Shown in pieces: positions 1-6,610 of a stretch of DNA of 6,610 nucleotides. The DNA comes from a virus (Duplodnaviria > Heunggongvirae > Uroviricota > Caudoviricetes), in the IMG/VR virus record IMGVR_UViG_2706794697_000006. One strand, given 5' to 3'. Every line of letters starts with the position of its first letter. Position 1 is the first letter of the stretch. Under the pieces are notes generated by a model that was not told the DNA's origin, made no database searches, and saw nothing but the letters and a program-made list of their open reading frames with translations. The position numbers and the translations under genes are program-made.

Positions 1-140
1 CATTGAGATTTTCTACAATCGTCAGCGTCGTCACTCTCGTCTGGGGAATATCTCCCCGGCAGCCTTCAGGGAAAAATATCATCAGATGGCTGCTTAAAAA
101 AAGAACAAATGGTAGTGTCCGCTATTGCCAGTACACCTCA
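1..140 (+). mobile_element. IS3-family insertion sequence, right-end fragment (copy A); body lies left of the window
   Basis: Bases 1-140 are the exact reverse complement of 6471-6610. They contain the 3' end of a transposase ORF and end in ...GCAATAGCGGACACTACC...TCA-type terminus (TG...CA ends typical of IS3 family). The two flanks diverge immediately after base 140 / before 6471. Confidence 0.8.
2..97 (+). CDS. IS3-family transposase (OrfB-type) C-terminal fragment; 5' end outside window
   Basis: Frame starting at base 2 translates to IEIFYNRQRRHSRLGNISPAAFREKYHQMAA then TAA at 95-97. This resembles the conserved C-terminal tail of IS3-family DDE transposases (from memory, not searched). 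Confidence 0.75.
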   Translation: MEIFYNRQRRHSRLGNISPAAFREKYHQMAA

Positions 141-150
141 GGATAGCGGT

Positions 151-194
151 CATGTGATGCCGGTTTCCCGGTAACTCAGCACCGGTATCTGAGT
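151..194. repeat. Stem-loop pair module X1 (hairpin 160-171 plus hairpin 174-194), related to module X2
   Basis: CCGG/CCGG 4-bp stem with TTTC loop (160-171), then ACTCAG/CTGAGT 6-bp stem with a 9-nt loop (174-194), preceded by ATGTGATGC. A second copy of the same architecture lies at 372-418. Confidence 0.5.
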
Positions 195-320
195 CAACGT
201 TTTCTCTACTGGGTCATTTCCGATACGCCCTGCCTGCTGACAGGCTTTCATCACATCTGAAAATATAGCACCCTGACTGATACTGTAGTACCTAAGGTTC
301 CAGAAACTGTGATGTATCCG

Positions 321-347
321 GCACAGAAAAGCCCCTCCGGAGAGGGC
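321..347 (-). terminator. Candidate intrinsic terminator (minus strand)
   Basis: Minus strand reads GCCCUCUCCGGAGGGGC (imperfect GC-rich hairpin, 331-347) followed by UUUUCUGUG (plus-strand A-run 327-330). The stem has one bulge. Confidence 0.35.
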
Positions 348-371
348 TGGAGAGTGGCGCTATGTGCCATT

Positions 372-418
372 GCATGATGCCGGGTGCCTCCCGGTGAATT
401 CAGTACCAGCACCTGAAT
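372..418. repeat. Stem-loop pair module X2, related to X1
   Basis: CCGGG/CCCGG 5-bp stem (380-394), then ATTCAG/CTGAAT 6-bp stem with a 9-nt loop (398-418), preceded by GCATGATGC. Relative to X1 the second stem carries a compensatory C-G to T-A change. Confidence 0.5.
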
Positions 419-544
419 CCGCGATTATCCCATATACCTACTCGCTGATTGCCCCTCCGCACAGGGGGATTCACCATGCCAGTTTCTTTTAACAAACTCC
501 CCGCAAAACAGACAACTGTCAACCGTCTGAATTGTGAGACATTT

Positions 545-570
545 AAAAAAAAGGCCCGCAAAAGCGAGCC
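545..570 (-). terminator. Rho-independent terminator immediately downstream of tRNA-Arg
   Basis: Minus strand: GGCUCGC-UUUU-GCGGGCC hairpin (plus 553-570; 7-bp stem with one G-U pair) followed by eight U (plus-strand A-run 545-552). Confidence 0.7.
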
Positions 571-584
571 AGGGAAAATAAGTG

Positions 585-661
585 TGGCGCGTTGTACTGG
601 ATTCGAACCAGTGACCGATTGCTTAGAAGGCAATTGCTCTGTCCGGCTGAGCTAACAACGC
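585..661 (-). tRNA. tRNA-Arg, anticodon UCU (reads AGA); phage-borne rare-codon tRNA
   Basis: Minus strand folds as a 77-nt cloverleaf: acceptor GCGTTGT/ACAACGC, D-stem GCTC/GAGC, anticodon stem ATTGC/GCAAT with loop CTTCTAA (anticodon TCT), variable loop CGGTC, T-arm ACTGG-TTCGAAT-CCAGT, discriminator G, encoded CCA. Confidence 0.9.
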
Positions 662-674
662 ATGATGCAGATAA

Positions 675-715
675 TGGACCGCCATCGGGGACTTGAACCC
701 CGCGCAGCCAGCTTC
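675..715 (-). tRNA. Partial tRNA, 3' portion only; 5' half including the anticodon lies in the N-run
   Basis: Minus strand shows T-arm CGGGG-TTCAAGT-CCCCG, then 7-nt acceptor strand ATGGCGG, discriminator T and CCA ending at 675. Identity cannot be determined. The implied 5' acceptor strand (CCGCCAT) is unusual, so this is tentative. Confidence 0.45.
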
Positions 716-925
716 NNNNNNNNNNNNNNNNNNNNNNNNNNNNNNNNNNNNNNNNNNNNNNNNNNNNNNNNNNNNNNNNNNNNNNNNNNNNNNNNNNNNN
801 NNNNNNNNNNNNNNNNNNNNNNNNNNNNNNNNNNNNNNNNNNNNNNNNNNNNNNNNNNNNNNNNNNNNNNNNNNNNNNNNNNNNNNNNNNNNNNNNNNNN
901 NNNNNNNNNNNNNNNNNNNNNNNNN
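716..925. other. Run of 210 N (assembly gap or masked sequence)
   Basis: Directly visible in the sequence. It hides the 3' end of the methyltransferase gene and the 5' part of the adjacent tRNA. Confidence 1.
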
Positions 926-1898
926 GCCCGAGCGCCAGTGCCGCTTTCACTGTCGAACCCAACCCCATGAAAAAATCTGCAATCAGGTCACCCGGACGAC
1001 TGCTAGCGCTGATTATCTGCTGCAGCATTTCTGCCGGTTTTTCGCACGGATGTTTCCCGGGATAGAACTGCACCGGTTTATGCGTCCACACATCGGTATA
1101 CGGCACCTGCACCGTCACGCCAAAATACCGCCGCAGATGTTTATATTCACTCAGCAGCTCCGCATACTGCCGGTTCAGTGAGGTATACGTATCCACCAGC
1201 TGGTGGTGGAGCTTTTCCAGTTCACCACGCCGATGCTTCTCTTCTGCCACCCGGGCAAACAGCGCCTGTAATTTCAGATAATCGCTTTCATTCGGCAACT
1301 GCCACTGACCGGCACTGAACCAGTGCGACACCATGTTTTTCTTTCCTGTGGCATCTGCAATCTGTTTTGCCGTTATCCCCAGGGCAGCTCGCGCATCACG
1401 AAAGTAAGAAATCAGCGGGGCCATCACATGCTGTTTCAGTGCACTGCCCTTCGCCGCATACCCGGCATCTTTCGGACGATACGGCCCCTGATAATGTTCC
1501 GCGAACAGAATGCGCTCTGTGGCGGGGAAATACGCCCGCAGGCTTTCCTTGTTGCATCCGTTCCAGCGTCCGGACGGCTTCGCCCAGATAATATGGTTCA
1601 GCACACTGAAGCGTTCACGCATCATGATTTCGATATCAGATGCCAGGCGATGACCACAGAACAGGTAAAGACTTCCGGCAGGTTTCAGCACCCGCCAGAA
1701 CTGCGCCAGACACTGGTCCAGCCACTTCAGGTAATCATCGTCGCCCTTCCACTGGTTATCCCAGCCCTCAGGCTTCACTTTAAAGTACGGCGGGTCCGTG
1801 ACTATCAGGTCAACAGAATTTTCGGGTAACGACCGGATAAATTCCAGGCAGTCGGCGTTGATTAACTCACAACTGGATATTTTTACAGTATTAAGCAT
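926..1898 (-). CDS. DNA methyltransferase (N6-adenine/N4-cytosine, DPPY class), orphan; C-terminus lost in the N-run
   Basis: ATG at 1898. The translation contains IVTDPPY (catalytic motif IV) near the N-terminus and HPCEKP plus DFFMGLGST (AdoMet-binding-type motifs) later. The ORF-track extension through the N-run and over the tRNAs (543-925) is an artifact. No obvious Shine-Dalgarno precedes the ATG. Confidence 0.85.
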
Positions 1899-1992
1899 GG
1901 ATCATTAAGCCTGTCTCTGATAGGCTCATTCTGCTTTTGCGCAAAGCAGTGGGCCTGAGGTTTGCTTGTGAACCCAACGCATGAGCAGATGG

Positions 1993-2019
1993 CTGGTGGG
2001 TGCCCCTAACACCCACCAG
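1993..2019. repeat. Perfect 10-bp inverted repeat CTGGTGGGTG / CACCCACCAG with 7-nt spacer
   Basis: Seen directly at 1993-2002 and 2010-2019. It is not followed by a U-tract on either strand, so it is not a canonical terminator. It lies in the 150-bp non-coding gap upstream of the methylase start. Confidence 0.6.
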
Positions 2020-2034
2020 CCGCCCATTTACCAC

Positions 2035-2062
2035 AAATAAAAAAGCCTTCACTGCGGAAGGC
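2035..2062 (-). terminator. Rho-independent terminator (minus strand) overlapping the stop of the small ORF at 2049-2246
   Basis: Minus strand: GCCUUC-CGCAGU-GAAGGC hairpin (plus 2045-2062) followed by UUUUUUAUUU (plus-strand A-run 2035-2044). Confidence 0.7.
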
Positions 2063-2246
2063 GTCTGTAACAACCGAACTGATAGTCTGCCAGACCCGCC
2101 ATAACCAGCTGGGTCAGTATTAACTGGCAGCGTTCGCGTGAAAGGTAAGTATTCTGCGCTATCTCCCCGACTGTCGCCGGTTCGGTAACGCTTAATTCAT
2201 TAAACACCACTCTGGCGGTTTCTGTCATATCCTGCTGTTTTAGCAT
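2049..2246 (-). CDS. Small hypothetical protein (65 aa), possible winged-helix DNA-binding regulator
   Basis: ATG at 2246 preceded by AAGGA about 6 nt upstream. The segment TVGEIAQNTYLSRERCQLILTQLVMAGL looks like a helix-turn-helix recognition region, and size and composition resemble FaeA/PapI-type small regulators. This assignment is by eye only. Confidence 0.5.
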   Translation of the reverse strand: MLKQQDMTETARVVFNELSVTEPATVGEIAQNTYLSRERCQLILTQLVMAGLADYQFGCYRRLPQ

Positions 2247-2365
2247 GTCTTTTCCTTTTCCGGTTAACGTGACACACCAATAACTCTTGTCGAAAAAGCC
2301 AGCAAGCTGAAAGACAGGTATTCACCGCCACCAGCGCGTTTACTGTACTGACGCGATTTCAGTCA

Positions 2366-2390
2366 TAAAAAACCCGCTCGGCGGCGGGTT
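2366..2390 (-). terminator. tR'-like intrinsic terminator downstream of the late promoter
   Basis: Minus strand: CCCGC-CGCCGA-GCGGG hairpin (plus 2373-2388) followed by UUUUUU (plus-strand A-run 2367-2372). It lies about 50 nt downstream of the predicted PR' start. Confidence 0.7.
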
Positions 2391-2437
2391 GTAGAAACTC
2401 TTCTAACGTCAGGCATAAAACGCCCATCGTTATAACG

Positions 2438-2465
2438 AATTTACCACAGATTCCGGAAAAATCAA
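2438..2465 (-). promoter_or_regulatory. PR'-like late promoter (sigma-70) just downstream of Q; expected site of Q engagement
   Basis: Minus strand TTGATT (-35, plus 2460-2465), 16-nt spacer, TAAATT (-10, plus 2438-2443). TAAATT is the -10 hexamer I recall for lambda PR'. The position between the Q stop and a terminator matches lambdoid late-control architecture. Confidence 0.5.
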
Positions 2466-2470
2466 CCTTG

Positions 2471-3292
2471 TTACCTAGTTACCTTTTTTAACTGCCGCTC
2501 AGCCCATGCTTCTTCAATATCAAACCGGGTCACCAGCGCATCATAAAATTTCTTAACTGTTTTTTCCCATGACGCGCGTGTTATCTGGTTTGTCACCTCG
2601 CATATAGCATTAAATGCCTCCGTTGATGGTAGTCTTTCATAGCCACGACCACCACAACGCTGGCAGTCTCTGATAACAGGCATACCACGTTTTACCGACT
2701 CTTCACGATGAATGGCGACACCACGCCCACGGCAATCCTTACAGGCGGTGGAAACCTCACCCTTTCCGCCACACTCCGGACAGGCAACTTTTACCACCTC
2801 CCTGACTTTTTTCCATTCTTCCCAGTAAGACGGATACACACCTTTCGTACACTTTGCCCATACCGGCGGCTTACCATCCGGATACTGGATCTTGTTTGTA
2901 AAAACCTCGCTTTCAATAAATTTTTTTCCGTGACAGCAGGGGCACTGTTTTTTGCTCGCCGCGCTACGGGCATAATCTTCAAACGCATACGAAGCCATAA
3001 TACGCATCACTGCCGGTTTTATTTCTGCCGGGAGTTTTCTTAACGCCGCCACGCGATCACACCGACTGAGTGCATATTCTGTCAGCAATTCTGTTGCCCG
3101 CTCTCTGTCATTCATACTAATGCCCATTTTCCCAAGGAACGCAGAAACCCCCATCTCAGCCCGATTCTGTGTCATGCCCTGCGCGGCCATCACATCAGTG
3201 ATACTCAGCGCATCTTTCGACGTTGAGGCCGATGCATCAGTCAGGCCGGGGGATTTTGGGGAGTAGTATTTCGGTAAATCTTCCAGTTTCAT
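2471..3292 (-). CDS. Q: Antitermination protein Q, long zinc-finger type (273 aa)
   Basis: The protein carries multiple CxxC motifs (CPCCHGKK, CPECGGKG, CKDCRGRG, CQRCGGRG). It sits immediately upstream of a PR'/tR'-like promoter and terminator and directly downstream of rusA, as in Qin-type prophages. Its start overlaps the rusA stop (ATGA). Confidence 0.75.
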   Translation of the reverse strand: MKLEDLPKYYSPKSPGLTDASASTSKDALSITDVMAAQGMTQNRAEMGVSAFLGKMGISMNDRERATELLTEYALSRCDRVAALRKLPAEIKPAVMRIMASYAFEDYARSAASKKQCPCCHGKKFIESEVFTNKIQYPDGKPPVWAKCTKGVYPSYWEEWKKVREVVKVACPECGGKGEVSTACKDCRGRGVAIHREESVKRGMPVIRDCQRCGGRGYERLPSTEAFNAICEVTNQITRASWEKTVKKFYDALVTRFDIEEAWAERQLKKVTR

Positions 3293-3669
3293 TTTTTGAC
3301 CTGCCCTTCAAGCATTATGGGATAAATCTTCACCCCCAGACGTCCACCAGATACTGGCTGAGCACGAACGATATTGATTTCATCAAACTGCTCATCGTCC
3401 ATTAGCAACCCCGCATGCGTCAGCGCATCCAGCGGCGCTTTCAGAATATTGTCCAGGTCACGGCGGCGCTTATCCGGTGGTTCTGCAATAATTTTTATTG
3501 CCAACCTTCCGGACAGGCTTAATTTCAGCCGCTGCTGGCGAACAATAAGCGCCACTGCCCGGCGATAACGCTCCCCGGCTTTTGATACAAAATATGTGCT
3601 GCCACGACGACGCCAGTAAGTGTTCACCGTCGGCGGGTAAGGTAAAACAAATTCTATGCGCTCGGTCAT
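3289..3669 (-). CDS. rusA: Holliday-junction resolvase RusA
   Basis: 126 aa. The translation contains DKRRRDLDNILKAPLDALTHAGLLMDDEQF and SGGRLGVKI, closely matching the conserved RusA core ([22 protein letters not shown]...DD, GGRLE) recalled from E. coli RusA. Confidence 0.9.
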   Translation of the reverse strand: MTERIEFVLPYPPTVNTYWRRRGSTYFVSKAGERYRRAVALIVRQQRLKLSLSGRLAIKIIAEPPDKRRRDLDNILKAPLDALTHAGLLMDDEQFDEINIVRAQPVSGGRLGVKIYPIMLEGQVKK

Positions 3670-4728
3670 TTATGCTTTCCACTTCAGAACACCCGAATTT
3701 CTCGCGTGCATTAAAAAACGAATCAGCAACAACAGCTGACTGCCGTGTTTCTCTTCAAAATCTTTTACTCCGGCATGTAGTTCGTTACGGCATTTACGGC
3801 ATAACGGAATAACAAACAAATCATCAGCCTTTGTTCCCATCCCTCCCAGTCCATGACCAATGATGTGATGCGGATCATCTGCCTGATTGCCACACGTCAT
3901 GCATTTCTGCGTTTTTACCCAGCGCGTGTATACAGGCATCTCTTCCCGTTGTGATTTCTGGCGCTGGAGATACTGAGCCGGTGACTCCGGATCAACGGCA
4001 ATGCTGACCACCGTCTTTTCCTGTGGTGGGTTCTGTTGCTGGTGGACGTGAGGCAGTAACGCAATATTTTTTGTGCGCTGCTTCAGTATGCTGGTGGCTG
4101 TCTGCTCTCCCGGTATGATGTCGCTTTCACTGTACACAGAGCGAATTTTTTCCGCACGCAACCCCAGCGAACGACGTAATACCGCTTCCGGTAGCGCGTC
4201 CGCCACCTGATTGCGGACCGCCCACCAGGATAATTCAGCCAGAGATAATTCACGCTCCTGCGTACCGCTTATTGCGTGACCGATGACGTCAATCATCCAT
4301 GCTGACAGGTTTTGATGAGCAAGTTGCTCGAGTGATTCGGATGTCTGGTCACGCAGCTGGTTGTCGCAGTGCCAGCACAACACCATTGCGCCGGTACCAT
4401 AACGGTGAATGACGGTTTCGCTGTGATGATAATCGCCGTGTGGCCACTGGCAGGATTTAATATGGCGCAACAGCCAGTCAGACAATGCACCAGCACCACC
4501 AGCAGCACGAATCACCCGTGCGTTACTGAAAAACGGCAGCAATGTTTTGTCTTCCACCAGCGGCTGGCGAGCGGCAGGAACGACCCCGGACGGCAGATTA
4601 CGCATGCTTTTTGGTTCCGGCTCCACCAGTATTCTGCCGTTATGGAATGCTGACATTGATTCACGGCCTGGCTTAACGATAACCAGACCGAGTTCCGGTA
4701 CCAGAACAGGTCGAAGTAATACCCGCAC
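3670..4728 (-). CDS. DUF968-like (YdfU-like) prophage protein with C-terminal HNH/zinc-finger-like motif
   Basis: 352 aa from a GTG at 4728 that has GGAGG 4 nt upstream; an alternative ATG at 4656 would give 328 aa. C-terminal motif CMTCGNQADDPHHIIGHG...CRKCRNELH. Size and position (upstream of rusA and Q) match ydfU of Qin-like prophages. Its stop abuts the rusA start. Confidence 0.7.
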   Translation of the reverse strand: MRVLLRPVLVPELGLVIVKPGRESMSAFHNGRILVEPEPKSMRNLPSGVVPAARQPLVEDKTLLPFFSNARVIRAAGGAGALSDWLLRHIKSCQWPHGDYHHSETVIHRYGTGAMVLCWHCDNQLRDQTSESLEQLAHQNLSAWMIDVIGHAISGTQERELSLAELSWWAVRNQVADALPEAVLRRSLGLRAEKIRSVYSESDIIPGEQTATSILKQRTKNIALLPHVHQQQNPPQEKTVVSIAVDPESPAQYLQRQKSQREEMPVYTRWVKTQKCMTCGNQADDPHHIIGHGLGGMGTKADDLFVIPLCRKCRNELHAGVKDFEEKHGSQLLLLIRFLMHARNSGVLKWKA

Positions 4729-4803
4729 ATTACCTCCAGATCCGTTGCTGGAATGTGCGGGACGGACGCGTTGGCCGTTCGGAGTAAGGGAGCCTGACGG
4801 AGA

Positions 4804-5085
4804 TTATCCAGTGACGGTAGTCGAGGCTAAGGGCTTTTTTAACCTCGCATCCGCGCCTGCGGTAACACTGAATGAGCCATTCGGCCTGTTCTTCAGTGCA
4901 TGGGGGATGCTGGTACCAATCAGATTTAAATGCGTGAGAGCGCCGCCCGTGCCTGCTGGCAAAGACGGCTGAATTATCAGAATTGTGTAGTCTGGAAGGC
5001 AGTGGCTGACAATAGCGCCATTCTCAACGCGCACAGTATAGAGGCCATCTTCACTAAAAATTTCACGTAATTCTTCGATTTTCAT
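4804..5085 (-). CDS. Hypothetical protein (93 aa) at the position occupied by rem in Qin-like prophages
   Basis: ATG at 5085 with GGAAGGA about 9 nt upstream. The ORF track starts it at a TTG one codon earlier. Position between hok and the DUF968 gene corresponds to rem; sequence identity to Rem was not verified. Confidence 0.5.
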   Translation of the reverse strand: MKIEELREIFSEDGLYTVRVENGAIVSHCLPDYTILIIQPSLPAGTGGALTHLNLIGTSIPHALKNRPNGSFSVTAGADARLKKPLASTTVTG

Positions 5086-5206
5086 CAACAGAATCCTTCC
5101 AGATAAATAGCACTCCCCTGTTCGGGGTCCATCCCTCTTCTCCCTGCGCGCTACTTAAGTATTTTTGATTCTATTCCGGCACCATCTAAAACTTCAAACG
5201 CGTTGA

Positions 5207-5236
5207 AAATAAAAACAAAAACCCGCCGAAGCGGGT
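5207..5236 (-). terminator. Rho-independent terminator at the 3' end of the hok mRNA
   Basis: Minus strand: ACCCGC-UUCG-GCGGGU hairpin (plus 5221-5236) followed by UUUUUGUUUUUAUUUU (plus-strand A-rich run 5207-5220). Confidence 0.8.
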
Positions 5237-5305
5237 TAAGTGTGGGTGCATTGAGGATGCCTGCCCCATCAGAGGTGGCGAGGGATTTCTCCCCCGCCTG
5301 GTCTC

Positions 5306-5461
5306 TTACTCCTCAGGTTCGTAAGCTGTGAAGACAGCGACCTCCGTCTGGCCGGTTCGAATTCGTACCTCGCAGAGGTCTTTCCTCGTTACCAGTGCCG
5401 TCACTATGACGGTTAAACAGATGACGATCAGGGCGATTAACATCGCCTTTTGCTGCTTCAT
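5306..5461 (-). CDS. hok: Hok-family type I toxin (51 aa membrane peptide)
   Basis: Translation MKQQKAMLIALIVICLTVIVTALVTRKDLCEVRIRTGQTEVAVFTAYEPEE, which matches HokD/RelF of E. coli as recalled. ATG at 5461 is preceded by GGAGAAGCAGGCT. Confidence 0.9.
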   Translation of the reverse strand: MKQQKAMLIALIVICLTVIVTALVTRKDLCEVRIRTGQTEVAVFTAYEPEE

Positions 5462-5518
5462 AGCCTGCTTCTCCTTGCCTTTCGGCACGTAAGAGGCTAA
5501 CCTAGATTTGCCGTTCAT
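5306..5518 (-). CDS. mok: mok-like reading frame (70 codons), in-frame N-terminal extension of hok
   Basis: ATG at 5518 in the hok frame adds MNGKSRLASYVPKGKEKQA upstream of Hok. The 70-codon length and arrangement match my recollection of mok loci. Confidence 0.55.
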   Translation of the reverse strand: MNGKSRLASYVPKGKEKQAMKQQKAMLIALIVICLTVIVTALVTRKDLCEVRIRTGQTEVAVFTAYEPEE

Positions 5519-5575
5519 AGATTGAGCCTCAGATTAATGTTAAGCGTCTTGCCGGACGCGTAATGTTAACTGGGG
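5510..5575 (+). ncRNA. sok: Candidate sok-like antisense RNA (position inferred, boundaries approximate)
   Basis: Plus strand opposite the mok start. Possible promoter TTGCCT (5475-5480), 17-nt spacer, TAACCT (5498-5503). Possible terminator hairpin GCGTC-TTGCCG-GACGC at 5544-5559 followed by a weak U-rich stretch. No clean terminator, so this is weak. Confidence 0.25.
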
Positions 5576-5612
5576 CTTTTCTCTATCTGCCTTTTGGTGT
5601 TCATGCCTGAGA

Positions 5613-5665
5613 CAGATAGCCTCAAGCACCCGCTGCAATTCTACTTAACTCTCCTTTTCCCGCAA
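5613..5665 (-). promoter_or_regulatory. hok promoter and mRNA 5' end carrying the fold-back partner of the 3' fbi element
   Basis: Minus strand TTGCGG (-35, plus 5660-5665), 16-nt spacer, TAGAAT (-10, plus 5638-5643). The predicted 5' end GCAGCGGGUGCUUGAGGCUAUCUG (plus 5613-5636) is complementary to the mRNA 3' region (plus 5241-5258) with one bulge, and resembles the GCUUGAGGC 5' motif of hok mRNA. Confidence 0.55.
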
Positions 5666-5672
5666 ACCGTTT

Positions 5673-5756
5673 TTATCCCCAGCGGCAAATCGAATACACC
5701 ACCAGCGCCACCGCCATCGCAATTCCTACCGTTGTTAATGCTTCAGGCCAGGTCAT
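5673..5756 (-). CDS. Candidate 27-aa hydrophobic peptide (ORF C), start overlapping the ORF B stop
   Basis: ATG at 5756-5754 overlaps the TGA of ORF B (ATGA). Translation [27 protein letters not shown] has a single predicted transmembrane-like stretch. It is below the ORF-track size cutoff. Only a weak GGA lies upstream. Confidence 0.3.
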
Positions 5757-6097
5757 CGTAAAATATCCTCCACGCTTATCAGTCCGTTCCGCTCCAGATA
5801 ACTCATCGCCTTATCCGGTAATTTGCAGTCTGGCTTCGCTTTCCTCAGTTGCCAGGTTAACTGCTTTACCAGCATGGTTAACTCATCGACCAGACGCTGA
5901 TATCCCACTGGTTTGTATTCATGCAATTTACCGGCTGGCTCTGCTGCCAGCGATACCAGTGCGATTTCCAGAACAGCAATATCCATCTTATATGTGCGGA
6001 TGATGTCATGGTCGATTGTGCCCGGTATGCACAGTCTCTGTGCTTCAATAGTCTCCTCTGCGTGAGCTATTAACTGCTCTCTGGTAAAAGTCGTCAT
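5753..6097 (-). CDS. Hypothetical protein (114 aa, ORF B), paralog of the upstream 55-aa ORF A
   Basis: ATG at 6097 overlaps the TGA of ORF A (ATGA). The N-terminus MTTFTREQ parallels MTTITKER of ORF A, and the internal [10 protein letters not shown]...EY parallels [10 protein letters not shown]...KY. Confidence 0.6.
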
Positions 6098-6261
6098 GCC
6101 GTAGCCCCTTCTTGATATTTTTCAAACCAGAACACAACCGGCTCTGCTTCCAGCGATGCCAGCGCAATCCGTGCCAGTTCCATTTGTTCACCACGGGTAA
6201 GCCCGTTTTCAAGCGGGTTTTTAATGAACAATTCAATACGTTCTTTGGTAATAGTGGTCAT
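6094..6261 (-). CDS. Hypothetical protein (55 aa, ORF A), first gene of a three-ORF coupled cassette
   Basis: ATG at 6261 with GGAG 7 nt upstream. Translation [55 protein letters not shown]. It is below the ORF-track cutoff. Its stop overlaps the ORF B start. Confidence 0.55.
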
Positions 6262-6271
6262 GTGTTACTCC

Positions 6272-6470
6272 TTAACCCGCAGTGCTTTCAACTGATGAGG
6301 GGAACAAAATCTTTTCATCAAACCCTGCATTCATATCATGAACAGCAACACACCAATCCATCGACGAACGATTATCAAGAGCCTCCATGATTTCATCCAT
6401 GCGGCGTAGGTCATACAGGTAAATGCTTTTATCGCCAATGGTGTAAAAGCCAATTTTTTTCGGTGATGGA
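6272..6470 (-). pseudogene. 3' fragment of an unidentified prophage gene truncated by the IS insertion (66 native codons)
   Basis: Open frame ending in TAA at 6272-6274 runs without a start codon up to the IS boundary at 6471. Native translation ...HPSPKKIGFYTIGDKSIYLYDLRRMDEIMEALDNRSSMDWCVAVHDMNAGFDEKILFPSSVESTAG. The frame continues into the IS to an ATG at 6502. Confidence 0.5.
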
Positions 6471-6610
6471 TGAGGTGTACTGGCAATAGCGGACACTACC
6501 ATTTGTTCTTTTTTTAAGCAGCCATCTGATGATATTTTTCCCTGAAGGCTGCCGGGGAGATATTCCCCAGACGAGAGTGACGACGCTGACGATTGTAGAA
6601 AATCTCAATG
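6471..6610 (-). mobile_element. IS3-family insertion sequence, right-end fragment (copy B, inverted); body lies right of the window
   Basis: Exact reverse complement of 1-140. The terminus faces into the window. Confidence 0.8.
6514..6609 (-). CDS. IS3-family transposase C-terminal fragment (copy B); 5' end outside window
   Basis: Mirror image of the 2-97 fragment, with the same translation ...EIFYNRQRRHSRLGNISPAAFREKYHQMAA. Confidence 0.75.
   Translation of the reverse strand: MEIFYNRQRRHSRLGNISPAAFREKYHQMAA

What the first reader, a model, noticed from the sequence alone, without database searches (positions are those of the whole stretch)
5205..5665. Complete hok/mok-type locus with 5'/3' fold-back complementarity, not embedded in a relBE operon
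Hok here matches HokD/RelF as I recall it, but in K-12 that gene is described as lacking its own regulatory elements and sitting downstream of relBE. Here the locus has its own promoter, a 70-codon in-frame mok, a strong terminator, and a 5' end (GGGUGCUUGAGG) complementary to the 3' end (CCUCAAUGCACCC). That suggests an autonomously regulated, potentially active type I toxin module. The sok antisense partner is only tentatively placed.
Basis: partly seen in the sequence, partly recalled or inferred. Interest (0 to 1): 0.5.

Follow-up and report, generated by a model that had tools for sequence, protein, structure and literature searches.

The report
Intact prophage hok/mok/sok toxin–antitoxin locus
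This is a complete, apparently working copy of the well-known hok/sok killer-gene module carried by lambda-like prophages of E. coli; it is the intact form of the gene that survives only as a 5'-truncated stump (hokD) in laboratory strain K-12, and it is common and already described.

Summary
On the minus strand, 5666-5205 holds a full hok/mok/sok type I toxin-antitoxin locus. It has a promoter-like -35/-10, a transcript starting GGGUGCUUGAGG (5631), and a 70-codon mok in frame with a 51-codon hok. It also has a 3' element, CCUCAAUGCACCC (5256-5244), that pairs with the 5' end, and an intrinsic terminator. The antisense Sok gene lies at about 5510-5581 (+) with its own promoter.

Pfam, PHROGs and Rfam all place it in the hok/sok family. 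Thirty-eight related loci conserve the 5'/3' pairing, with compensatory changes. Thermodynamic folding reproduces the three-state switch described for plasmid R1.

Hok is identical to K-12 HokD. K-12 shares the DNA only from the hok ribosome-binding site onward; upstream of that it has relE. The window therefore holds the intact form.

That intact form is ordinary. The regulatory region is found in 4286 of 5426 complete E. coli genomes. It is annotated as hokW/mokW/sokW in phage 933W, and the module was shown to work in Sp5 in 2021.

Side observations: a hypervariable patch at the Sok recognition site, a conserved TadA editing site, and IS600 ends bracketing the prophage fragment.

The parts
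5638..5666 (-). Putative hok promoter: -35 TTTGCG (5666-5661), 17-nt spacer, -10 TAGAAT (5643-5638); +1 at G 5631
   Evidence: Read from the sequence. The -10-like hexamer sits at a fixed distance from GGG in divergent loci. It was not reported by the consensus scan.
5212..5631 (-). Full-length hok mRNA (about 420 nt)
   Evidence: MFE -169.5 kcal/mol, z -7.2. Rfam RF01794 matches 5631-5456 at 112 bits against a gathering score of 59.
5620..5631 (-). tac (translational activator) element, nt 1-12, GGGUGCUUGAGG
   Evidence: Pairs alternatively with fbi, with ucb, or with nt 19-29.
5603..5613 (-). Partner of tac in the metastable 5' hairpin (nt 19-29)
   Evidence: 96.4% of cells paired across 38 loci, 3 pairs with changes on both sides; the slid control gives 29-53%. 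It is the MFE of the nascent 1-170 nt RNA.
5570..5578 (-). ucb / anti-SD (AAGCCCCAG, nt 54-62)
   Evidence: tac/ucb stem 99.6% paired but invariant. ucb/mok-SD pairs 61/101 and 62/100 change on both sides.
5527..5530 (-). mok Shine-Dalgarno GAGG (nt 102-105)
   Evidence: Invariant in 38 loci; lies 8 nt upstream of the mok AUG.
5306..5518 (-). mok ORF, 70 codons plus stop, in frame with hok
   Evidence: An ATG at -57 in frame is also found in most related loci and in the R1-type IncFII locus.
5505..5526 (-). Hypervariable patch: mok SD-AUG spacer plus mok codons 2-5; this is the target of the Sok 5' tail
   Evidence: Per-site diversity 0.30-0.35, against 0.016 at hok third-codon positions. At least 15 alleles of the 11-nt patch.
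5493..5498 (-). dcb (AGCCUC, nt 134-139), pairs with the mok SD in the processed form; overlaps the first base (5498) of the sok -10 hexamer on the other strand
   Evidence: Pairs 102-107/134-139 are conserved. In the R1 description dcb overlaps the Sok promoter (PMC9841398).
5475..5503 (+). sok promoter: -35 TTGCCT (5475-5480), 17-nt spacer, -10 TAACCT (5498-5503)
   Evidence: Identical to the 933W/Sp5 sequence. Per the primers of PMC8621323, mutating that -10 region gave the 'pro-less' construct that lost protection. Conserved across loci.
5510..5581 (+). Sok antisense RNA (about 72 nt): 5' single-stranded tail, long hairpin, U tract
   Evidence: Mapped from the sokW annotation in 933W. Fold -31.8 kcal/mol, z -4.9.
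5306..5461 (-). hok ORF, 51 aa plus stop; SD AAGGAG at 5476-5471
   Evidence: Pfam PF01848, 1.2e-23. PHROG 251 'MokW-like host killing', 2.8e-33. 100% identical to K-12 HokD.
5321..5323 (-). Tyr47 codon UAC within UUACGAA: candidate TadA A-to-I editing site (Tyr to Cys)
   Evidence: TTACGAA is invariant in 38 loci. The A is predicted mostly unpaired. Editing of K-12 hokD mRNA is reported at 6% (PMC12214031).
5277..5298 (-). 3' UTR hairpin GGCGGGGGAG...CCCUCGCC (nt 334-355), the likely 3' end protector of the processed mRNA
   Evidence: 97.4% paired, 2 pairs with changes on both sides. The role is inferred from R1 (PMC9841398).
5244..5256 (-). fbi (fold-back inhibition) element CCUCAAUGCACCC
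   Evidence: Duplex with tac -21.5 kcal/mol. Same position and compensatory changes in 38 loci.
5205..5237 (-). Intrinsic terminator: stem-loop 5237-5220 plus U-rich tail

Best explanation
This is an intact hok/mok/sok type I toxin-antitoxin module in the nin region of a lambdoid prophage remnant. It belongs to the hokD/hokW lineage.

Mechanism, by homology with plasmid R1 and phage Sp5:
1. A weak constitutive promoter makes a stable mRNA of about 420 nt.
2. While the RNA is being made, its 5' end (tac) is held in a metastable hairpin, and the anti-SD box (ucb) covers the mok ribosome-binding site.
3. In the finished RNA, tac pairs with the 3' fbi element. The molecule is then closed, untranslatable and unable to bind Sok.
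4. Slow 3' trimming removes fbi. tac then pairs with ucb instead, the mok start region is exposed, and translation of mok drives translation of hok.
5. In cells that keep the locus, the abundant, short-lived antisense Sok RNA pairs with the mok start region through its 5' tail, and the duplex is destroyed.
6. If Sok supply stops, because the element is lost or the prophage is induced, Hok is made, enters the inner membrane and kills or lyses the cell.

Shown here: all sequence elements, their conservation and covariation, and the predicted alternative folds. Inferred: transcription, 3' processing, Sok instability, toxicity and biological role.
For: - Family assignment: Pfam HOK_GEF 1.2e-23; PHROG 251 'MokW-like host killing'; Rfam RF01794 at 112 bits.
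- Similarity: 91.6% DNA identity to the annotated mokW/hokW/sokW of 933W. The sok promoter and hairpin are identical to 933W.
- Experiment on the near-identical Sp5 copy: toxicity of HokW and neutralisation by sokW RNA (PMC8621323).
- tac/fbi: present at the same place in 38 of 40 loci from Escherichia, Kluyvera, Photorhabdus and Pantoea.
- Pair counts on 38 loci: closed form 88.8% paired with 14 pairs changed on both sides; open form 85.3%; metastable hairpin 96.4%. Slid controls give 29-53%.
- Position 4 covaries with both its fbi partner and its metastable partner.
- Folding: the nascent 1-170 nt RNA gives the metastable hairpin plus ucb/SD. RNA 1-362 gives tac/ucb plus SD/dcb. RNA 1-408 gives tac/fbi, about 10 kcal/mol better than tac/ucb.
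- The 201-nt regulatory region is 100% identical to copies in several complete E. coli genomes.
- The element names and the switch are as described for R1 in PMC9841398.
Against: - No expression data exist for this copy.
- The hok promoter fails a simple sigma-70 consensus scan.
- In the full-length MFE, ucb pairs with a 3' UTR UGGGGC rather than with the mok SD. The ucb/SD version is 2.4 kcal/mol worse, so the exact closed structure is uncertain. The mok SD is still paired, with dcb, in that fold.
- The tac/ucb stem is invariant across the loci, so covariation neither supports nor contradicts it.
- Chromosomal hok loci tested in earlier work did not mediate post-segregational killing (cited in bioRxiv 10.1101/2025.08.07.668861).
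- The prophage here is a fragment bracketed by IS600 ends. The induction-linked role shown for Sp5 may therefore not apply.
Confidence: 0.9

Rival explanations
1. The locus is structurally complete but functionally silent. It would be a relic that no longer kills, like the K-12 chromosomal hok loci, and persists only by hitch-hiking in prophage DNA.
For: - Earlier work cited found that chromosomal hokA, hokB and hokC loci could not mediate post-segregational killing.
- K-12 hok loci other than hokB are regarded as inactivated (PMC12214031).
- The surrounding prophage is a 6.3-kb fragment between IS600 ends.
- Tyr47 needs A-to-I editing to become the conserved Cys, and K-12 hokD is edited at only 6%.
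Against: - No disabling change was found in any element: promoters, tac, ucb, mok SD and AUG, dcb, hok SD and ORF, fbi, terminator.
- The regulatory region is 100% identical to copies in several complete E. coli genomes.
- The HokD coding sequence was toxic on overexpression (preprint).
- The 92%-identical HokW locus is active.
- Paired positions show compensatory change, which implies continuing selection on the RNA switch.
Confidence: 0.15
2. hok here is not autonomously expressed. It would be mainly a passenger of the phage early rightward transcript and act as an auxiliary lysis gene only at prophage induction. The tac/fbi switch and Sok would serve merely to keep it silent in the lysogen.
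For: - hok lies on the same strand as all neighbouring nin-region genes: phrog_660 ORF, DUF968, RusA and Q.
- No terminator-like site is found between the upstream ORFs and hok.
- In Sp5, sokW RNA vanishes and HokW appears after mitomycin C in a RecA-dependent way, and phage release is halved without the locus (PMC8621323).
Against: - A -10-like hexamer at a fixed distance from the conserved GGG 5' end is kept even where the upstream DNA is unrelated, as in Photorhabdus, chromosomal hokC-type loci and R1.
- The 5' end must be exactly at tac for the fold-back to work.
- In this window the fragment is cut off from any phage early promoter by IS600.
- This reading complements the main explanation rather than excluding it.
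Confidence: 0.25
3. The 5'/3' complementarity is a chance match, and the region is simply a small membrane-peptide gene with an ordinary terminator.
For: A 12-bp match between two short segments could occur by chance within a 400-nt RNA. Single-sequence MFE predictions are unreliable.
Against: - Same pairing at the same position in 38 of 40 loci, with changes on both sides (UA24/CG12 at position 4; GC/AU at position 12).
- z = -7.2 against shuffles.
- Rfam match at twice the gathering score.
Confidence: 0.01

Closest known systems
hokW/mokW/sokW of Stx2 phage 933W and Sakai prophage Sp5
   Same: - Same position in a lambdoid prophage and the same architecture.
- 91.6% DNA identity over the locus; Hok 92% identical.
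- tac, ucb, the Sok hairpin, the sok promoter, the hok SD and fbi are identical or nearly so.
- Experimentally a toxin/antitoxin pair that aids phage release (PMC8621323).
   Different: - The 11 nt after the mok AUG, which encode the Sok 5' tail, differ: AACGGCAAATC here, CTGAACACATG in 933W.
- Downstream flank: rem-like here, a different gene in 933W. The terminator sequence also differs.
- Here the prophage is only a fragment between IS600 ends.
hokD (relF) of E. coli K-12 cryptic prophage Qin
   Same: - Identical Hok protein.
- Near-identical DNA from the hok SD through fbi and the terminator to rem.
- Same downstream neighbours: rem, DUF968 (ydfU) and Q.
   Different: K-12 has the end of relE in place of the promoter, tac, ucb, mok start and sok. 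The window has the complete 5' half and no relBE. The K-12 junction is the minority state: 1165 genomes against 4286 of 5426.
hok/mok/sok (parB) of plasmid R1
   Same: - Same order of elements and same logic: tac-fbi closure, ucb, mok AUG 57 nt upstream of and in frame with hok, Sok promoter inside the mok/hok leader, fbi just before the terminator.
- Conserved GCTTACGAA in the hok 3' part.
- Mechanism as described in PMC9841398.
   Different: - Plasmid-borne, and acts in post-segregational killing of plasmid-free cells.
- Low protein identity: the literature gives 44% between HokW and R1 Hok.
- The Sok-mirror hairpin in the 5' UTR is longer here; tac is GGCGCUUGAGG in R1.
Chromosomal hokA, hokB, hokC (gef), hokE loci of E. 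coli
   Same: Same family and the same RNA elements. hokC-type loci in Escherichia species align throughout and show the same tac/fbi pairing (loci L015-L022).
   Different: About 80% protein identity, a shorter Sok-mirror hairpin, and a location outside prophages. The K-12 copies other than hokB are reported as inactivated by IS elements (PMC12214031).

Membership tests
[quoted passage not shown] | Small hydrophobic Hok/Gef-family toxin ORF of about 50 aa | tested here: met
   Pfam PF01848 at 82.9 bits against a cut-off of 22. PHROG 251, 2.8e-33. 100% identical to K-12 HokD.
[quoted passage not shown] | Overlapping upstream mok reading frame with its own SD, to which hok translation is coupled | tested here: met
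   70-codon ORF 5518-5306 with GAGG 8 nt upstream. Same -57 in-frame arrangement in most relatives and in the R1-type locus. The coupling itself cannot be tested here.
[quoted passage not shown] | cis-encoded antisense Sok RNA covering the mok start region, with its own promoter, a 5' single-stranded tail, a hairpin and a U tail | tested here: met
   Promoter TTGCCT-17-TAACCT is identical to the sokW promoter. The predicted 72-nt RNA folds as tail plus hairpin plus U tract, z -4.9. Expression was not tested.
[quoted passage not shown] | 5' tac and 3' fbi long-range pairing that closes the full-length mRNA | tested here: met
   12 bp, -21.5 kcal/mol. Conserved position with compensatory changes in 38 loci. 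It is the MFE of the full-length RNA.
[quoted passage not shown] | Alternative pairings: tac/ucb (open form), ucb/mok-SD (closed form), mok-SD/dcb | tested here: met
   All are formable. The MFE of RNA 1-362 is tac/ucb plus SD/dcb. ucb/SD flanking pairs covary. The tac/ucb stem is invariant, so covariation gives no information on it.
[quoted passage not shown] | Metastable 5' hairpin in the nascent transcript | tested here: met
   nt 3-13 pair with nt 19-29. 96.4% paired, 3 pairs changed on both sides. It is the MFE of nt 1-170.
[quoted passage not shown] | Match to the curated RNA family model (Rfam RF01794) | tested here: met
   112.4 bits against a gathering score of 59, E 1e-25, full model length.
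[quoted passage not shown] | Slow 3' processing of stable hok mRNA, unstable Sok, RNase III cleavage of the duplex, killing when Sok is lost | not testable with these tools
   Known for R1 (PMC9841398) and partly for Sp5 hokW-sokW (PMC8621323). Inferred here by homology only.
relBE-hokD operon arrangement (K-12 Qin type) | relE immediately upstream of hokD, replacing the hok 5' regulatory region | tested here: not met
   The alignment with K-12 diverges about 14 nt upstream of the hok AUG. The Pfam scan of the 10 ORFs tested and the PHROGs scan gave no RelB or RelE match, and the ORFs directly upstream of hok are phage ORFs.

The most novel reading that the evidence does not exclude
The 22-nt patch between the mok SD and mok codon 5 (5526-5505) encodes the single-stranded 5' tail of Sok and its target. 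It may be a specificity code under diversifying selection. Prophage hok/sok copies that are otherwise more than 97% identical carry at least 15 different alleles there. Each prophage's Sok would then silence mainly its own hok, so several copies could coexist in one genome (median 2, up to 9-11) while each stays individually addictive or individually triggerable at induction.
Probability: 0.3. Interest if true: 0.4.

Novelty: already known. Interest (0 to 1): 0.12.

Why it matters
It matters little as a discovery. The module is a textbook system. Its prophage form was annotated in 1999-era phage records and tested in 2021. NCBI's pipeline already labels close copies as hokD, and 79% of complete E. 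coli genomes carry the regulatory region.

The useful points are clarifications:
- K-12 hokD is the derived, 5'-truncated state of this prophage locus. K-12 should not be used as the reference for what 'hokD' looks like.
- Genome annotation usually marks only the hok ORF and omits mok, Sok and the RNA switch elements mapped here.
- The hypervariable Sok-recognition patch could be used to ask whether co-resident prophage hok/sok copies cross-talk.

Tried and rejected
- Consensus promoter scan. It found neither the hok nor the sok promoter; both have only 3 of 6 matches in one hexamer. The one site it did report (5197-5168, minus strand) lies downstream of the terminator and is unrelated. The promoters are therefore placed by homology and conservation.
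- Weak Rfam hits isrK and rsmX at 5216-5302 (25 bits against gathering scores of 50-56). Rejected: they match only the 3' UTR hairpin plus the terminator.
- My recollection that R1 mok is out of frame with hok. Rejected: in an R1-type IncFII locus the mok ATG is 57 nt upstream and in frame. Some relatives (L011, L012, L024, L026, L029-L032) have one extra base and no in-frame ATG.
- Whether co-resident copies always differ in the hypervariable patch. The three copies in one Shigella flexneri genome all differ, but two IMG/VR contigs from one genome share an allele. There are too few cases for a test.
- A YUNR U-turn motif in the Sok-target loop. I looked by eye only, could not place one in the window's allele, and did not pursue it.
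- MAFFT misaligns the distal half of fbi between loci with and without the bulged base. The 'unpaired' counts for columns 394-399 are therefore alignment artefacts; the per-locus duplexes are the better measure.
- Protein database searches, structure prediction and fold search were not run. The family assignment was already unambiguous.

Full report
**What is there**

The feature lies on the minus strand. Reading 5'->3' on that strand, the elements are:
- A -35/-10 pair: TTTGCG (5666-5661), a 17-nt spacer, TAGAAT (5643-5638).
- A transcript start at G 5631, with the sequence GGGUGCUUGAGG.
- A 5' leader of about 110 nt.
- A GAGG ribosome-binding site (5530-5527), followed 8 nt later by an ATG at 5518. 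This opens a 70-codon frame (mok).
- A second ribosome-binding site, AAGGAG (5476-5471), and an ATG at 5461. This opens the 51-codon hok frame in the same phase. Both frames stop at 5308-5306.
- A G+C-rich hairpin in the 3' UTR (5298-5277).
- The sequence CCUCAAUGCACCC (5256-5244).
- An intrinsic terminator: stem 5237-5220 plus a U-rich tail.

- GGGUGCUUGAGG and CCUCAAUGCACCC form 12 base pairs with one bulged U (-21.5 kcal/mol).
- The MFE structure of the whole transcript closes the two ends on each other (-169.5 kcal/mol, z = -7.2 against 100 shuffles).
- A scan of one genome per species returned 53 loci encoding Hok relatives in Escherichia, Shigella, Kluyvera, Pseudocitrobacter, Citrobacter, Photorhabdus, Pantoea and others.
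- Among the 40 unique loci that carry the 5' motif, 38 have the complementary 3' element 45-56 nt after the stop codon. The two sides change together: GGGUGC/GCACCC becomes GGGCGC/GCGCCC, and GAGG/CCUC becomes GAGA/UCUC or GAAG/CUUC.
- On the 38-sequence alignment, position 4 pairs as U-A in 24 loci and C-G in 12.

**Family assignment**

- Hok matches Pfam PF01848 (82.9 bits against a cut-off of 22) and PHROG 251 'MokW-like host killing'.
- The 5' 176 nt match Rfam RF01794 over the full model (112 bits against a gathering score of 59).
- Phage 933W carries a 91.6% identical locus annotated mokW, hokW and sokW.
- In the near-identical Sp5 copy, HokW arrests growth and sokW RNA, made from its own promoter, prevents this. 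Mutating the sok -10 abolishes protection. The locus doubles phage release after mitomycin C (PMC8621323).

**Placing Sok**

- Transferring the sokW annotation gives a plus-strand RNA from about 5510 to 5581.
- Its promoter is TTGCCT (5475-5480), a 17-nt spacer, and TAACCT (5498-5503). It is identical to the 933W sequence, whose -10 region was mutated in the Sp5 study.
- The predicted RNA has a single-stranded 5' tail, a long hairpin and a U tract (-31.8 kcal/mol, z = -4.9).
- It covers the mok AUG and SD.

**The RNA switch**

The R1 description (PMC9841398) names the elements tac, fbi, ucb and dcb and a metastable hairpin. All are present here:
- tac: nt 1-12.
- Metastable partner: nt 19-29.
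- ucb: nt 54-62.
- mok SD: nt 102-105.
- dcb: nt 134-139. It overlaps the start of the sok -10 hexamer on the other strand, in line with the R1 description that dcb overlaps the Sok promoter.
- fbi: nt 376-388.

Pair counts over 38 loci:

| Conformation | Cells paired | Pairs changed on both sides |
|---|---|---|
| Closed form | 88.8% | 14 |
| Open form | 85.3% | 12 |
| Metastable hairpin | 96.4% | 3 |

Controls with the partners slid by 1-3 columns give 29-53%. Position 4 covaries with both its fbi partner and its metastable partner, and it is the bulge in the tac/ucb stem. That is the pattern expected if one nucleotide serves successive structures.

Folding the window's own sequence reproduces the sequence of states:
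- Nascent RNA 1-170 gives the metastable hairpin plus ucb/SD.
- RNA cut after the 3' hairpin (1-362) gives tac/ucb plus SD/dcb.
- Full-length RNA gives tac/fbi, about 10 kcal/mol better than tac/ucb.

Two caveats apply. In the full-length MFE, ucb pairs with a UGGGGC in the 3' UTR; the ucb/SD alternative is 2.4 kcal/mol worse. The tac/ucb stem never varies, so covariation says nothing about it.

**Relation to K-12 hokD**

- The Hok protein is identical to K-12 HokD.
- The alignment with K-12 Qin is near-perfect from about 14 nt upstream of the hok AUG, through fbi and the terminator, to rem.
- Upstream of that point K-12 has the 3' end of relE.
- Downstream gene order is shared: rem-like, DUF968/ydfU, then Q. 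The window also has RusA.
- K-12 hokD is therefore a 5'-truncated copy of this same prophage locus, and the window shows the intact form. This agrees with the published view that K-12 hokD lost canonical components by rearrangement (PMC12214031).

**How common it is**

- The 201-nt regulatory region (5440-5640) is covered at 80% or more in 4286 of 5426 complete E. coli genomes, and at 100% identity in several.
- The relE-hokD junction occurs in 1165 of those genomes.
- Of 80 IMG/VR contigs encoding the identical Hok protein, 77 have the complete 5' region and 3 do not; 2 of those 3 carry the K-12-type relE upstream sequence.
- A recent survey reports hok enriched in prophages (bioRxiv 10.1101/2025.08.07.668861).
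- The finding is therefore correct but already known.

**Context**

- All neighbouring ORFs are on the same strand and are nin-region genes of a lambdoid phage: phrog_660 and phrog_3323 ORFs, DUF968/HNH, RusA, antiterminator Q, tRNA-Arg(UCU), STnc100 and a DNA methyltransferase.
- No terminator-like site separates the upstream ORFs from hok. In an intact prophage, early rightward transcription could therefore run into the locus and across the convergent sok promoter. This could explain the loss of sokW at induction seen in Sp5, but it is inference.
- In this window the prophage DNA is only a 6330-bp fragment (141-6470). It lies between two inverted copies of the last 140 nt of IS600.

**A feature worth noting**

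- Among 66 unique sequences of this lineage, diversity along the transcript is very low: 0.03 in the 5' UTR and 0.016 at hok third-codon positions.
- The exception is nt 106-127 (5526-5505), where diversity is 0.30-0.35.
- This patch is the mok SD-AUG spacer plus mok codons 2-5, which is the target of the Sok 5' tail.
- At least 15 alleles of the 11 nt after the AUG exist. The window's allele, AACGGCAAATC, is in 7 of 93 loci.
- The three copies in one Shigella flexneri genome all differ, but two contigs from another genome share an allele. Whether this reflects selection for non-cross-reacting Sok/hok pairs remains open.

**Verdict**

The novelty rating is 'already known' and the interest is low.

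Noticed in passing
window 5505-5526 (minus strand; hok mRNA nt 106-127): Hypervariable patch at the mok SD-AUG spacer and mok codons 2-5, which is the Sok 5' tail and its target. Per-site diversity is 0.30-0.35, against 0.016 at hok third-codon positions, among otherwise near-identical prophage copies. At least 15 alleles exist; the window's allele AACGGCAAATC is a minority one.
   Followed up: partly
window 1-140 and 6471-6610: The two ends of the window are perfect inverted copies of the last 140 nt of IS600 (IS3 family), ending in the IS terminus ...CAGTACACCTCA. The prophage DNA (141-6470) is thus a 6.3-kb fragment bracketed by two inverted IS600 copies. This may be a contig bounded by repeats, or a composite-transposon-like unit.
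   Followed up: partly
window 5318-5324 (minus strand), Tyr47 codon UAC at 5323-5321: UUACGAA is invariant in all 38 aligned hok loci and in R1. The A is predicted unpaired in a loop. This is the TadA A-to-I editing context that recodes Tyr to Cys in hokB/C/D/E mRNAs; K-12 hokD is reported edited at 6%.
   Followed up: partly
window 5673-5756 (minus strand): Unannotated 27-codon ORF ([27 protein letters not shown], one hydrophobic helix). It overlaps the stop of the upstream ORF by ATGA and ends 41 nt before the hok transcript start. It is kept with amino-acid variants in 933W and other loci. Some other loci have a different small hydrophobic ORF (MEGALAVIAVVGVYCLVVFLMDRLGN) at the same place. 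There is no PHROG match.
   Followed up: partly
window 319-508 and 92-280 (minus strand): A strong match to the sRNA family STnc100 (123.6 bits) lies downstream of the Q antiterminator region. A second, weak, sub-threshold match (21.8 bits) lies next to the IS600 end.
   Followed up: no
window 585-661 (minus strand): tRNA-Arg (anticodon UCU) between Q and the DNA methyltransferase gene.
   Followed up: no
window 716-925: A run of 210 N interrupts the DNA methyltransferase ORF (543-1898, minus strand). This is masked or unresolved sequence.
   Followed up: no
window 5263-5268 (minus strand; hok mRNA nt 364-369, UGGGGC): The window has G where the three aligned relatives (K-12 Qin, 933W and the closest E. 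coli match) have T: GAUGGGGCAG against GAUGUGGCAG or GAUGUGUCAG. This creates a 6-nt complement to ucb (GCCCCA). The full-length MFE fold prefers it over the ucb/mok-SD pairing by 2.4 kcal/mol.
   Followed up: no
window 4804-5088 (minus strand): The rem-like ORF downstream of hok matches its PHROG family (phrog_340) only over the first 29 residues. It is longer than K-12 Rem: 93 aa against a 252-nt rem gene. The ORF may be frameshifted or divergent.
   Followed up: no
locus L028 (Kluyvera sp. CHPC 1.2972), about 2815-3000: A Kluyvera genome has the K-12-type relE-derived sequence upstream of a hok homologue that is only 70% identical. The relBE-hok junction is therefore not confined to E. coli.
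   Followed up: no
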